Positions 51,701 to 57,700 of a stretch of DNA of 64,000 nt are shown here, in pieces (the stretch's first letter is position 1; every line of letters starts with the position of its first letter). Source of the stretch: Okamejei kenojei. Its lineage: Eukaryota. Below the pieces are notes generated by a model, which saw only the letters and a program-made list of their open reading frames with translations, searched no databases and was not told the origin of the DNA. The DNA is taken from contig CM069174.1 of assembly GCA_035221665.1 (NCBI GenBank), positions 2,480,001 to 2,544,000 of the forward strand, given 5' to 3'. A program made the position numbers and the translations under genes.

Positions 51701-54700
51701 TGTGAGGAAAGTTTCATAAAACAAGGTTCAATACACCATAATCCACCAGAAATTGGTCAGAGGCTGTATGTGTTTTGTCATTTTGAGGTGCAGTTTAAAG
51801 GCAAGCAATTACTATTTTTGCACGCACAAGTTTTGCAAAAGATTGCGTAAGGATTGTAATGCATATAGTCTGGCAAAATATTCCACAGTGCGCTATAATG
51901 ATCGCAAAAATGCAGCATTCAATGAAAGCGCGGCATCAATCATCATGACAGCATTTTGTGTATGAAGAGGTTCGTATAATGCTTTGCCCTGTCTTGCAGA
52001 AACATCTCAAAAGCGCTAAAGATCAACAGATTATTTCTCAACTAATGTGATTCTTGTTGTGTAGCAAAATGCGGCCGCAAATTTGCAAACAGCAAATGAT
52101 ATGAATGATCAGTTAATGTGTTTTGGGTGGTGTAGGTTGAGTGCTAAGCAGCAGCTTAAAGCATTGAACTTGCGCATGACAGCCCAGTGCAGCTATTTCC
52201 ACAGCAATTTTCCTTGGACAATGGAGTGTACCAGCCACATTTTGACAACCTGGCGCTAAAGGCTTTAATTAACGAAGTGAGCCACCATATACTGCATGGA
52301 GGGCCGCTCCTCCTCAGAGAAAGCTGGTGCAGCAGGTCTGGAAATAAATCGTCGAGCTTGTAAATGCTGCTTCCAGAACTCAACGAACCTGGCAAGATGT
52401 TAGGAAGAAGATGGGAGATCTCAAGAAATCAGCTAAGGTAAGTCAATAATATTAATATGCACCTGCCATAAGTGGACATGCAAGAAAGTCAACCCTGGCA
52501 AACTTCTCATTCTTTTTGCCTCTCTGTTGAAACTGGTATGAGGCAGTTCACCAGTGCAGCACTGCCAAGAGACACGAGGGCAATGAATGGGGATATTTAT
52601 GTCTAAGTTATGAAGTGCTTATGCAAATCTCTGTACGCAACATTTCCAAAAGGGGATAGAGACAATGACTGTTTGGAAGTGAATCTAACAGGGTGATACG
52701 CATTCATTGAAAACATCTCGTACGCCACAGAAACTGTGCAACTGCATGTGCAACTGTCAGTGCTCTGGGTACATTCAACCTATCAATACTGTTCTTCTCC
52801 TTGCAGGACAAGATGGCCTTCAATCAGCGAGAACAGTGCTGCATTGGACTCAGCCAATTCGGGCCCCTACTCTATGCAAGAACGACACTTTGGAACTAAT
52901 AAGCAGGGAGAGTATAGAGGGAGTGGGGGACGGCAAAGCTGCAAGCTTCCAACGAGTTCATGGCTAGTATGATATTTTTGTTGTATCATTTTGATCTGTT
53001 AAATAACTGTCGATCAGGCACATGCTAACCTAAGTAACAGTGCAGATAATACCGTAGAGTGACGCATTATCTTCTCTTTTCACAGAAATGGAAAAACAGA
53101 GTGTAGCAGTATCTGCAAGAAAGGCCACAATCACAGCACTTTATAGCACAATCACTATATCAACCACCAGGTTCAGCTACACACTTCAAAGAACATAGAT
53201 AGGGAGATTTAGGAGGAGCCTCAGCGGTAAGTCACTGTCCACGGATGAGAAGGAGCAAGAGGGCCTGCTGATCATCGACTGAAGAAAAAACCAGCGCGGT
53301 TACTGATGCAGTATCGGAATATCTGAGCATTTTAACCCCATCGGATCCGCTGAAAAGCAGAACACTCCTGTCTGAGCAAATCATCGGCTGGGATCATTTA
53401 CATACGGGATACGTTCGTGCAAAATCCTGAAAGGATTGTGGAGGAGCACACTACCTAGATCTGTGCAGTTACAGATGAATGGTTGGTTCTGCTGGAGTTT
53501 TCCATAGAGTGTGTGGTAACCCTTCAGTGGAGATCAAAGGCACATTTGGGACATTTCTCATAAATGTTCATACTACCACGATAGAGATTTAAGGCTCAGC
53601 CCTTAAAGGTGCTCTTTTGACACCCTCAGATAATTTGGAGATTGGATGCAGGCAGTCGTAAAGAATTTGCGGATTTTACAGATGCCTGAATTCTGTTCTC
53701 ACATGAGTGGATGTTGAGAGAATGCATATTGCCTGGTCGTAGTTAAAGAGATGATCAGGTCTTACATTAATCCAAGCTGTCAAGATTTCCGATGTAACAA
53801 TAGGTATGTAAGAATAAGCAATACGACCGGTCGTAAACATGAGTGAAACTACTGGAGCCCGTGCCGCATAGAGGTTTCATGCCACTACTATTCCAACAGC
53901 CTGACTATGGAACTCGCCACCAGCCTATACAATCATTCCCTTCGAGAGGGAATCAATGAGAAGATGAGATAGGCCGGTTCTACCCCATCAAACTCCAGAC
54001 ACAAAGTACAATCTTCACTATATACATAATGGTTGGAATAAAATCACTGGATTTAATTTGTACATTCTGCTGTGTGTTTATTTGTCTTTGATTAAAGTTA
54101 AACCTGATTGAGGATTCTGGATGGGCATGGATGATATTTGAGGAATTGTACTGGTGAGTACAACTGCAGCTGTTTGGGATGCTTCACTAATATATTTGGA
54201 TGGCAATTTTATTACATGGAACAACACTGAAAGATATTTTGAATTTGTATCTATGGACCAGCTTTCTTGCTGCCCTCCTAGTTCAGCAACTACATCTCTG
54301 AGTTCCGTATTGCTATGTCTTTGACATTCTGATCTTCTTCCAATGCAGAGCGAAAGAAAGACATTTGCTCCTCTCACCTGTCCCCAATTGTTTAATTACT
54401 AATAAATTATTTCGAAAATGGACTCGCTGTTGTTTTATAACCAAATGCGGCTGCTAAATTTGCATACAGCAAGATCGCACAAGCGGCAAATGAAAGTTAT
54501 GACCACCTGATCTGCTCTTGGTGTGGTTGGTTGGAATTAATATTGGCTGAGAAACCAGGGGAACTCCATGCGTTTCCTTGAACAGATCCTTTGCATCCAC
54601 CAGAAAAGTCAGTACTCCACTGAAGTGGCAAATTAGGTGATATGAACTAAGTGGTGTTTAGAGATATGATCTTCCAATTCAGAAAACCGATTGTTATCAT

Positions 54701-57700
54701 ATGAGCCAAGCTGACAAAGCAGAGTTTTCTAATAATTCATGGGAAATTATAAGGTATCACTTGATCACTTAAGACATTTGGAACACCACTTTAAGATCCC
54801 TGAAGTAGTATTTTCCTGGGTTATAGCTGGGCCTTTATTGTACTCATGACTCTGCTTCTGTAGATATTGGTGCATGGATGTCATGGTCCTTGGCTGCAGA
54901 GAGTTCTCTTGGTCTCCCAGAAGCCACTCATTTACTCCTTCTTCCACTTCAAGTAAAGATGTCACAGGTGATTGCCTTAATGTGAAGTCATGTCGAGAGT
55001 TCTTGGGGAACCAAGTATTCACCTGCATTTCTTGGTGCTGGAGCTGCACACCAGCTGGACTCTGATAGAATAAAAATCCCCTTTTCAATGATCATAATGC
55101 AGAGCAACATTATGTACAAGAGCCCAAACATGGGTGCTATTGCTGACTCTTGAATTCTCGAAATCCAGTAGATGCATTGAATTCGGATTTGCTGGTGTTG
55201 ATCTAGTCAATAATTAAGTGGCAGCTGCTAAATCATGCAAATGTCACGGTCTGGCCAAATGAAGCAGGCTTGCCCTTCAAATATCCCCAGGCCTTCACTG
55301 GAAGGATCAAAACACAAAGTTTGATGACCTTGGATACCCATTGATGATATAACATTGATACTTGCCTGATTCCAAAAGTCCTAATTGAGGGGATGGTACC
55401 TATCTTAGCCTCACAGCTTACCCTCGACAACTATACCACTGTTCCACAATTATTTCTAGGTCATTCATTGTGCCTAGGTTCATGACCCAAAATGATTTTC
55501 TTCTTGTGGGATATCTTGCATCCCTGATCTGTCCTCCTCAGCTAATTAAAGTCAGACGATGTACTGATTGCAATATATGTGCTGACCTAACCAGCTGCAG
55601 TTGTAACTCTGTTGTGTAGCAACTTAAGAGTGAAATAGGAGAACACACTTTAGGTGTGAAATAAGTGCCTCAAAAATTGTGTTTGGAATTTAAGAACCAA
55701 CGATGTGGACTTTAACCAGGTTTACTCACAAATTCAGTGCTGCAACACCGAATAGCCATCTCAGCCCAGCTACAAAAGAATGGCTGTGTGTTGTATCATC
55801 ACACTGCTTGAATTATCAATGTTAACATATTACTGGGAGAAGATGAAAACTGCGATACCATCAGTCATTTCCAGACTTATTATGAAAAACAAAAGTGCAT
55901 CAAATATACTCTGAGTTGTAATCTCCATTTTGCTTCTTCTTCTAGGGTGAACCTGGAAAACAAGGAGCTCCTGGATCTGCTGGTGACCGAGGCCCCCCTG
56001 GCCCAGTCGGCCCATCTGGTCTTACTGGTCCTTCTGGTGAACCTGGACGTGAGGTTTGTCAATCTTTTATACCACAATTCAATCATTATATTTTTTGTGT
56101 CATTTTCCCAATTCTGACTGCTCTGTATTCCTTCAACAGGGCAACCCTGGTGCTGATGGACCTCCTGGCCGTGATGGTTCAACCGGTCCAAAGGTATGGT
56201 GAATAATTTTTACGTTAACATTGAAGAGGATTAGTAACTTCCAAAAATGTAAATGCTCAAAACAAAGTTAGACGTGAAGCAGAAATAATATTGTGTACAA
56301 AAGAAGTTCCCTGTATCCCATTGATCTCACCGATTCCTAATTTCAGAAATGTAACCACACGTGAACCTCTGTGAGGTTAGAGCTAAATTGCATTCAGAGC
56401 CTGAATAGAACAGAATTGTCTCTGGTCTGTGGTGATGCCACAGTTGGTGATTATATAGATTAAAATCTCTCAACATTTAAGAATTGGCTAACCAGGTAGT
56501 TGGTTTAAGCGTAGGGTATTATGGAGATAGGAAAAGCACCTGGGATTAAAATGACTAATTATGTAAAGGCAAAAGATGAAAATGGATTAGTGAGACCAAA
56601 TAACCTGTTTCCATGTTGTCATTTCTAAAATGATTTGATATAATGCTCTGAGAATGTCTGAAACTCATGTTATTGGGCACAGAAGAAGTCTCTGCATTTC
56701 CTCAGAGTGATGACAATTTGAATCTCCAGGGACAAAAATAAACAACTAATATATTGCACCACCTCAATTCAAATGCTTAAACACCTAATGTGTTAAGCTA
56801 ACATAATTTTGATCTTTGTTCCTACCAACCAAAGGACAGCATTTGCCCGCAGAATTCCTGCTATTGGAATGAACATGTAATAAGATGTGCAGATCTATAC
56901 GGTTAGGTGCTGCCAATAAAGTCTATAAGAAAAGAATTGTGAGAAATAATTAAAAACTGTCCAAACAGACAACTAATAACCTACTATAAGAGTAGGAACA
57001 ATACAAAAACATTAGATCAAAGATAATAAATAAAGTTTTATTGATAAATTAAATTTTCTACAATCATCATCATATTTTCTGACTTTCACACATTCAAATT
57101 GTTTTGCTCCACTGTACTGAATTGAATTGTGATATTATCTGTTGAGGTCACTTGAGGTCTTGAGTAATGTCAGTGCCAAAGTGAGGAAGCAAATCACGTA
57201 GACTGTCTTTGTGCCCAGGCACAGAGAAAAGGACATGCACACAATTAGTACCAGTCTGAAAGGGCTGGGCATGTAGCCGGTTATTGCCAGTCACAAAGAG
57301 AGAGTTGGCCATGTTCCAGTTATTACCAGCTACAGGGGGGGGGGGGGGGGATGGACGAGCATTTAGTTTATTCCAGCCACAGACTAATGGGCAGATACCC
57401 AGTGATTATTGCAGAGAGGTGTGTGTGTGCCCAGTTAATACCAGTCACAGACAGATAAGTGTACACCCAGTTATTACCAGTCACAGACAGATAAGTGTAC
57501 ACCCAGTTATTACCAGTCAGTGAGAGTGATGGTTGTGTACCCGTTGGTACTTGTCCCATAAGAGTGAGGTTGTACCCATTAGTACTAGTCTCAGAAGGAT
57601 GGGCGAGTGCCAGCTGCATACGTCCTTTTATTATTATTCATGTAAGCAGATGGGCATGCATCCAGTTATTGCCAGTCATAGAGAGTTGGACTCGCCCATT

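What the first reader, a model, noticed from the sequence alone, without database searches (positions are those of the whole stretch)
51745..55820. Cryptic fossil of a two-gene Harbinger transposon in intron 43
Seen across frameshifts: a spliced Myb/SANT gene on + ([43 protein letters not shown]) facing a transposase on - with seven motifs in the expected order. The first catalytic Asp reads Asn; WLLGD is kept. DeuSINE-like fragments at 51965 and 54420 appear to sit inside it, implying great age. Known: this layout defines PIF/Harbinger, the source of vertebrate HARBI1 and NAIF1. Inference: a datable relic, possibly shared across elasmobranchs.
Basis: partly seen in the sequence, partly recalled or inferred. 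Interest (0 to 1): 0.7.

Follow-up and report, generated by a model that had tools for sequence, protein, structure and literature searches.

The report
Dead transposon's intron is still spliced
A long-dead two-gene jumping gene lies inside an intron of a ray's collagen gene; such fossils are common, but one of this fossil's own introns is still cut out of RNA in two species, likely as an intron inside the host's intron, and the DNA around it changes slowly, which may mean the host now depends on it.

Summary
The fossil is real. A spliced Myb/SANT pseudogene on + (Pfam PF13873 E 7e-6; three pieces above all shuffles) faces a HARBI1-clade transposase remnant on - (53.5 bits vs shuffle maximum 5.9; DNA profile E 5e-24). 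The transposase 5' half, the termini and the DeuSINE label are unconfirmed. As a fossil it is ordinary: this genome holds 13 other decayed copies of the clade among 15 loci examined, and the scan noted similar two-gene fossils in other shark genomes.

New here: the predicted Myb intron (52438-52806, GT-AG) is cut out in 3 of 6 RNA runs (2 species, 2 studies) and not in the one DNA run. It most likely is nested splicing of col2a1 intron-43 RNA. Its acceptor is the strongest and its donor the second strongest in the 7.3-kb intron, although the reading frames are dead. The surrounding 1 kb diverges more slowly than its flanks between species (1.3 vs 3.8%; 2.9 vs 5.2%) but not within the window's species. 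Function is untested.

The parts
48531..48638 (+). Host collagen exon upstream of the intron (col2a1 exon 43 by recalled human numbering)
   Evidence: Gly-X-Y scan with AG/GT borders; RNA loose ends join its 3' sequence to 55946
52029..52095 (+). Fragment of an old dispersed repeat (SINE-like; DeuSINE/SacSINE1 label recalled, untested), about 125 nt upstream of the Myb start; not shown to be inside the element
   Evidence: nhmmer E 2.9e-4 with model from 24 other copies; 83% over 54 nt to L002
52221..52437 (+). Myb/SANT pseudogene exon 1 (likely start ATG 52221; frameshifts; TAA 52345-52347)
   Evidence: PF13873 E 7e-6, 6e-8 isolated; 55 bits over 52232-52437, 0 of 60 shuffles; 53% identity over 43 aa to shark and ray Myb proteins
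52438..52806 (+). Myb intron 1, 369 nt, GT-AG, still spliced in RNA (nested intron)
   Evidence: Joint in RNA runs X7, X13 and X9, absent in DNA run X5; GT follows the same codon in 4 of 4 related Myb genes of this genome; site scores
52807..52966 (+). Myb pseudogene exon 2 (frameshifted; 3' border inferred, donor looks decayed)
   Evidence: 8.3 and 11.9 bits, 0 of 100 shuffles each
53086..53226 (+). Candidate Myb exon 3 (borders by splice-site score only; no joint seen in RNA)
   Evidence: Second-ranked acceptor and third-ranked donor of the intron; no protein similarity above noise; no joint
53539..53616 (+). Remnant of the C-terminal part of the Myb protein
   Evidence: 12.6 bits, 0 of 40 shuffles with the nearest-clade profile; not recovered by the broader profile; tblastn E 0.007
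54369..54574 (+). Second, longer fragment of the same dispersed repeat, between the 3' ends of the two genes
   Evidence: nhmmer E 1.3e-11; 25 exact pattern matches in the genome vs 0 for the control pattern
54747..55202 (-). Transposase remnant, catalytic region; first Asp reads Asn (55141-55139), second Asp kept (54914-54912), third residue ambiguous because of indels
   Evidence: tblastn best E 4.8e-9; 53.5 bits vs shuffle max 5.9 of 60; chained extension to 55202; DNA profile E 5.2e-24 over 55139-54747
55203..55820 (-). Presumed 5' half of the transposase and element end; not confirmed (one motif-like stretch at 55330-55285 lies on the expected diagonal)
   Evidence: Not above shuffles; 9.9-bit ungapped 8-mer only
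55946..56053 (+). Host collagen exon downstream of the intron (exon 44)
   Evidence: spliced to the next exon in X7, X13, X17

Best explanation
This is a dead two-gene Harbinger-like DNA transposon in a ray collagen intron whose Myb-gene intron (52438-52806) is still spliced out of RNA, most likely as a nested intron of the host col2a1 pre-mRNA. Shown: the two decayed genes face each other, neither has an intact frame, the element is present at the same place in three related species, and the 369-nt GT-AG intron is removed in a large share of the intron-derived RNA of two species. Inferred: because the Myb gene lies in the host's sense direction, the host polymerase copies it and the spliceosome pairs the fossil's strong donor with its strong acceptor, after which the shortened host intron would be removed normally, so the collagen mRNA is unchanged. 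Inferred, weaker: the pair persists because losing one site would leave the other free to pair with a collagen splice site, so the two sites hold each other in place.
For: Fossil. Splice: joint 52435->52805, GT..AG, depth 58.1 spliced vs 62.6 unspliced in X7 and 20 vs 17.5 in X13, 14.5 vs 7.1 in X9, none in DNA run X5, which spans the stretch in one contig. The runs are RNA: collagen exon depth 5147/2881/4049 with an exon-exon joint against 8-151 in the intron. Host transcript: RNA contigs cover the intron from about 50100-50430 into exon 44; in X9 the spliced form lies on a 2092-nt contig reaching about 2 kb upstream, whose depth is twice that of the unspliced inner intron; in X7 spliced plus unspliced depth (121) fits a smooth 5'-3' gradient (112 expected). 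Sites: best acceptor and second-best donor of the intron, scoring above the host intron's own sites in a matrix from the window's 42 donors and 43 acceptors; no difference listed at 52432-52463 or 52769-52851 in X5, X9, X17, X19 (40 of 41 rows shown). Ancestral intron position.
Against: No joint in 3 of 6 RNA runs (X17, X18, X19; organisms E and F), though contigs drop rarer forms. All data are assembled contigs: no strand, start site or single-molecule linkage. In X13 spliced plus unspliced depth (37.5) exceeds the gradient value (22.6), as a separate transcript starting near the Myb gene would give. X7 and X9 come from one study. Joint support is 27-30 nt on the shorter side. No termini found. 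The mutual-retention step has no direct test.
Confidence: 0.55

Rival explanations
1. Exaptation: the Myb half of the fossil has become a functional non-coding element of the collagen gene (a splicing regulator that tunes intron-43 retention, or an enhancer), and is under purifying selection beyond the two splice sites. Compatible with nested splicing; it adds a host function.
For: 52150-53150 shows 13/1001 substitutions vs 150/3909 in the rest of the same contig in organism E (p 1.7e-5), 29/993 vs 165/3176 in F (p 0.002), and 4/426 vs 178/5073 in C (p 0.002, the observation that prompted the test). None of 15 other loci of this transposase clade kept a Myb remnant above 11 bits, against 55 here.
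Against: Window chosen after seeing C; C, E and F share the branch to the window's species; F inside and outside counts come from two runs; indel-rich flanks may inflate outside counts. Within organism A there is no drop (8 of X7's 50 differences fall in the 1 kb, about 0.8% vs 0.9%). In F, 12 of 25 listed differences and 3 indels fall inside the inner intron. CpG content is within the window's range.
Confidence: 0.25
2. The junction comes from a separate sense transcript started at the fossil's own Myb promoter, a non-coding RNA that may read on into collagen exon 44.
For: X13 depths step from 15.2 upstream to 33.5 downstream, and the unspliced inner intron (17.5) matches the upstream value. 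A likely start codon and exon 1 survive.
Against: In X9 and X7 upstream depth exceeds the unspliced inner intron (14.5 vs 7.1; 85.9 vs 62.6), so spliced molecules probably extend far upstream. No joint for the later Myb introns.
Confidence: 0.15
3. The Myb and transposase halves are unrelated insertions, or the Myb half is a once-domesticated host gene that died.
For: No termini bind the halves. The nearest Myb proteins are conserved shark and ray genes. The Myb half is better preserved than the transposase 5' half.
Against: Convergent layout within about 3.3 kb, close to the 4.5-kb mean of autonomous NuwaI elements (PMC4482050); both halves match elasmobranch Harbinger-type families; 53% identity in the Myb core is lower than among the conserved genes themselves.
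Confidence: 0.05

Closest known systems
PIF/Harbinger and NuwaI groups of the PHIS superfamily (PMC4482050, PMC9179366; passages read)
   Same: Two genes: DDE transposase plus Myb/SANT protein; similar size
   Different: Both genes are broken; TIRs and TSD (TWA for PIF/Harbinger, CWG for NuwaI) not recognisable, so the group cannot be assigned
HARBI1, NAIF1 and MSANTD1-4 (PMC9392472; passages read)
   Same: Same protein families
   Different: Those are intact host genes; this is a pseudogene pair; the transposase falls outside the HARBI1 clade (HARBI1 clade 100% support; window placed among shark and ray sequences at 70-79% on a very long branch)
Nested splicing / intrasplicing in dystrophin and intron-intron junctions (PMC4829307, PMC5126111, PMC3789819 passages; PMC4482092 abstract)
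   Same: An internal donor-acceptor pair is used inside a larger intron
   Different: Here the host intron is only 7.3 kb, the sites are canonical and strong (in dystrophin only 23.6% of nested events were GT-AG), the event is shared by two species, reaches about half of the intron RNA in contig depth, and its origin is the homologous intron of a transposon gene
Decoy exons (PMC7373989) and SAFB-suppressed transposon splice sites (PMC10901741); passages read
   Same: Deep-intron splice sites, some from DNA transposons, compete with host sites
   Different: No splicing of the fossil's sites to host exons was seen; they splice to each other
Exapted Paleozoic protein fossils, including PIF/Harbinger (PMC9004415; passages read)
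   Same: Old transposon coding remnants near or in developmental genes with slowed evolution
   Different: Constraint here is modest, local and seen only among close rays

Membership tests
PHIS superfamily (Harbinger-like) | DDE transposase alignable over the catalytic region | tested here: met
   tblastn E 4.8e-9, profile 53.5 bits, DNA profile E 5e-24 from the first-Asp motif to the C-terminal RCL motif. Pfam PF13359 itself did not hit.
PHIS superfamily (Harbinger-like) | Second gene with Myb/SANT domain | tested here: met
   PF13873 above its cut-off; further exons
PHIS superfamily (Harbinger-like) | Terminal inverted repeats | tested here: inconclusive
   Best left-right alignment reached by 85 of 300 shuffles; expected for a decayed copy, but ends are unknown
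PIF/Harbinger sensu stricto vs NuwaI | TSD TWA vs CWG | tested here: inconclusive
   Six weak 14-mer pairs with matching or TWA triplets, none credible
Active or domesticated transposase | Intact frame and D-D-E triad | tested here: not met
   Frameshifts and stops; first Asp is Asn; all four runs carry a 1-nt insertion at 54805 inside the longest open stretch
HARBI1 orthologue | Monophyly with vertebrate HARBI1 | tested here: not met
   (86-aa fragment, 46 reference proteins chosen from 120 hits plus own-genome ORFs; weak placement)
DeuSINE / SacSINE1 | Deu domain and tRNA-derived head matching the published consensus | not testable with these tools
   Dispersed repeat shown; no Rfam hit; consensus not available; the label is recalled
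Nested intron | Internal GT-AG pair spliced in RNA and not deleted in DNA | tested here: met
Nested intron | Junction lies on the host pre-mRNA and precedes removal of the outer intron | tested here: inconclusive
   Contig continuity and depths favour it in X7 and X9, not in X13

The most novel reading that the evidence does not exclude
A transposon that died before these ray lineages split left its own intron behind as a selected nested intron in collagen II intron 43: the splice-site pair and flanking exon remnants are kept because they safeguard or tune removal of the host intron. This would give a traceable origin for nested introns and a new mode of transposon exaptation.
Probability: 0.25. 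Interest if true: 0.7.

Novelty: new variant of a known kind. Interest (0 to 1): 0.45.

Why it matters
Nested splice sites are known mainly as rare events of unclear origin in giant introns. Here one has a clear ancestor (intron 1 of a Harbinger Myb gene), is used heavily in two species and sits in the main cartilage collagen gene of a cartilaginous fish. It is a ready test of whether dead transposon genes seed and entrench nested introns. If only passive, it still shows that transposon splice sites can outlive their reading frames by a long time. The fossil as such is ordinary.

Tried and rejected
Pfam scan of 12 read-through frames and 3 isolated pieces: no DDE_Tnp_4 hit; PDB search with the 89-aa piece: nothing relevant. 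5' transposase half: not above shuffles with two protein profiles and one DNA profile. Termini: the 18-nt inverted pair 51518/55748 has no matching flanking triplet and is at chance level. Close DNA copies of the element in its own genome: none but a 54-nt repeat match, which the tool says does not show rarity. Rfam: one sub-threshold hit, E 0.42. The abundant young Harbinger family of this genome (most of 155 PF13359 matches) is a different clade: of 30 fetched loci only L017 matched the window. Coding constraint rejected: stop and frameshifts, mixed synonymous and non-synonymous changes. CpG retention and SOX-like motifs: not distinctive or not controlled. No RNA holder was on record as RNA; RNA status was judged from exon joints. 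No joint for later Myb introns or from fossil sites to collagen exons among the rows shown (15 of 17 loose ends); exon 43 itself was outside the laid stretch. Papers: one id not held, one supplement unreadable, which might hold the SacSINE1 consensus.
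Full report
Setting. The window carries 43 Gly-X-Y exons on + with AG/GT borders of a fibrillar collagen; the telopeptide is that of type II collagen by recall, and by recalled human numbering the intron 48639-55945 is intron 43. The host is a ray-like elasmobranch: an intact transposase-like ORF of the same genome (L017) is 96% identical to a named sawfish protein.

Myb half. Of 12 read-through frames only one hit a family above cut-off: PF13873 on + at E 7e-6. With profiles built from shark and ray Myb proteins (8 and 32 of the 66 hits), a frameshift-aware alignment of my own scored exon 1 at 45.8 and 55.0 bits (0 of 60 shuffles), exon 2 from 52807 at 8.3 and 11.9 bits (0 of 100), and a C-terminal piece at 53539-53616 at 12.6 bits (0 of 40; the broader profile did not recover it). 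In 4 of 4 related Myb genes of this genome a GT follows the same codon as in the window, so the intron position is ancestral. The frame is dead: frameshifts after the likely ATG at 52221 and TAA at 52345-52347; no indel or change there is listed for organisms A, E or F (40 of 41 rows shown).

Transposase half. Pfam does not see it. tblastn with 120 HARBI1-like proteins gave 204 rows, 160 in 51000-56000, best E 4.8e-9 at 55070-54750 on -. The profile alignment scored 53.5 bits against a shuffle mean of 0.1 and maximum of 5.9 in 60. A DNA profile from 15 loci of this genome hit 55139-54747 at E 5.2e-24, the next hit in the window being E 0.19. Upstream of about 55200 nothing beats shuffles. A tree of an 86-aa piece with 46 references put it among shark and ray sequences on a very long branch with 70-79% support and outside the HARBI1 clade. 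No TIR or TSD was found, so PIF/Harbinger versus NuwaI (defined by TSD in PMC4482050, passages) stays open.

Repeats. A 19-letter pattern matched 25 places in the genome, the control 0. A model from the 24 other copies hit 54369-54574 (E 1.3e-11), 52029-52095 (E 3e-4) and two other collagen introns. Only the first lies between the two genes. The DeuSINE/SacSINE1 name is recalled; the supplement that may hold the consensus was unreadable. If the name is right, PMC5499810 (passages) puts that family's peak at roughly 200-226 Ma in a chimaera under one of two very different clocks, a loose guide only.

How ordinary is the fossil? The genome has 155 PF13359 matches among 150 scored candidates, mostly a different young clade. 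Of 15 fetched loci of the window's clade, 2 are intact ORFs and 13 decayed fragments; none kept a Myb remnant above 11.1 bits in its 9.9-kb stretch. Earlier notes of this scan report several two-gene fossils in shark genomes as ordinary (unchecked); no look-alike of this stretch was on record.

Public runs. 20 of 24 listed runs from 10 studies and six organism codes hold part of the stretch; 7 were laid. Organisms C, E and F carry the whole element at the same place with 3-8% substitutions, so insertion and decay predate their split; sharks and chimaeras are out of this tool's reach. X7, X13, X17 and X18 behave as RNA (exon depth in the thousands against 8-153 in the intron; exon 44-45 joint in the first three). 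It is not listed in X17, X18 or X19. So 3 of 6 RNA runs, 2 of 4 organisms.

Mechanism. The Myb gene is in the host's sense direction, so its splice sites are copied into collagen pre-mRNA (follows from the layout). In a matrix built from the window's own 42 donors and 43 acceptors, the fossil acceptor is the best in the intron (16.5; host acceptor 15.1) and its donor second (11.5; host donor 10.0) (the matrix favours a G after AG). RNA covers the intron up to exon 44, and in X9 the junction sits on a contig reaching about 2 kb upstream at twice the depth of the unspliced inner intron; X7 fits a smooth gradient, X13 fits a step better. I take nested splicing of the host transcript as most likely; a separate transcript is not excluded, since contigs give no starts or strand. 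That the sites hold each other in place is inference.

Constraint. After seeing 4 differences in 426 nt in organism C against 3.5% in its flanks, I laid 52150-53150 again: E has 13/1001 against 150/3909, F 29/993 against 165/3176 (Fisher p 1.7e-5 and 0.002). Against this: shared branches, two different runs for F, possible inflation near indels, no drop within organism A (8 of 50 differences), about half of F's differences inside the inner intron, and no special CpG retention. It is a hint, not proof; it is not coding constraint.

Literature. Nested splicing and intron-intron junctions are described (PMC4829307, PMC5126111, PMC3789819, passages; PMC4482092, abstract), as are decoy exons (PMC7373989), suppressed transposon splice sites (PMC10901741), exapted Harbinger fossils (PMC9004415) and Harbinger-derived genes (PMC9392472; PMC9179366), all passages. 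Six searches (listings only, open-access library) showed no report of this locus or of a dead transposon gene's own intron acting as a nested intron; that is weak evidence of absence.

Verdict. Observation largely right, ends and dating unproven. Fossil alone about 0.25; with the demonstrated splice and the hint of constraint 0.45; new variant of a known kind.

Noticed in passing
window 48717-50060: Young LINE-like repeat in the same intron, 89-95% identical to copies in several fetched loci; CR1 label recalled. Relatives differ around 50426-50485 (loose ends).
   Followed up: no
window 50236-51600: Degenerate ~29-nt tandem-like repeats upstream of the element.
   Followed up: no
L017/L085 (G000:C17:16782411-16783571) and L046/L086 (G000:C19:32711411-32712466): Two intact HARBI1-like ORFs with close counterparts in other rays (96% to a sawfish protein; 80-82% to Mobula and Narcine proteins). 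L017 has Gly in place of the first catalytic Asp and a GC-rich upstream region; likely domesticated genes distinct from HARBI1.
   Followed up: partly
L037, L101, L102, L103: Intact Myb/SANT genes with close counterparts across sharks and rays and the same intron-1 position as the fossil; likely several lineage-specific domestications.
   Followed up: partly
G000, e.g. L021, L022, L029: Abundant young Harbinger family with open frames of 440-470 aa, while PMC9179366 found no Harbingers in elephant shark.
   Followed up: no
window 24087-24171 and 59569-59852: Two more copies of the same old SINE-like repeat in other collagen introns.
   Followed up: no
window 55821-55863: 43-nt deletion in X7's contig (GT..CA ends), probably a DNA variant; X7 and X9 differ from the window by about 1% although filed under the same organism code.
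   Followed up: no
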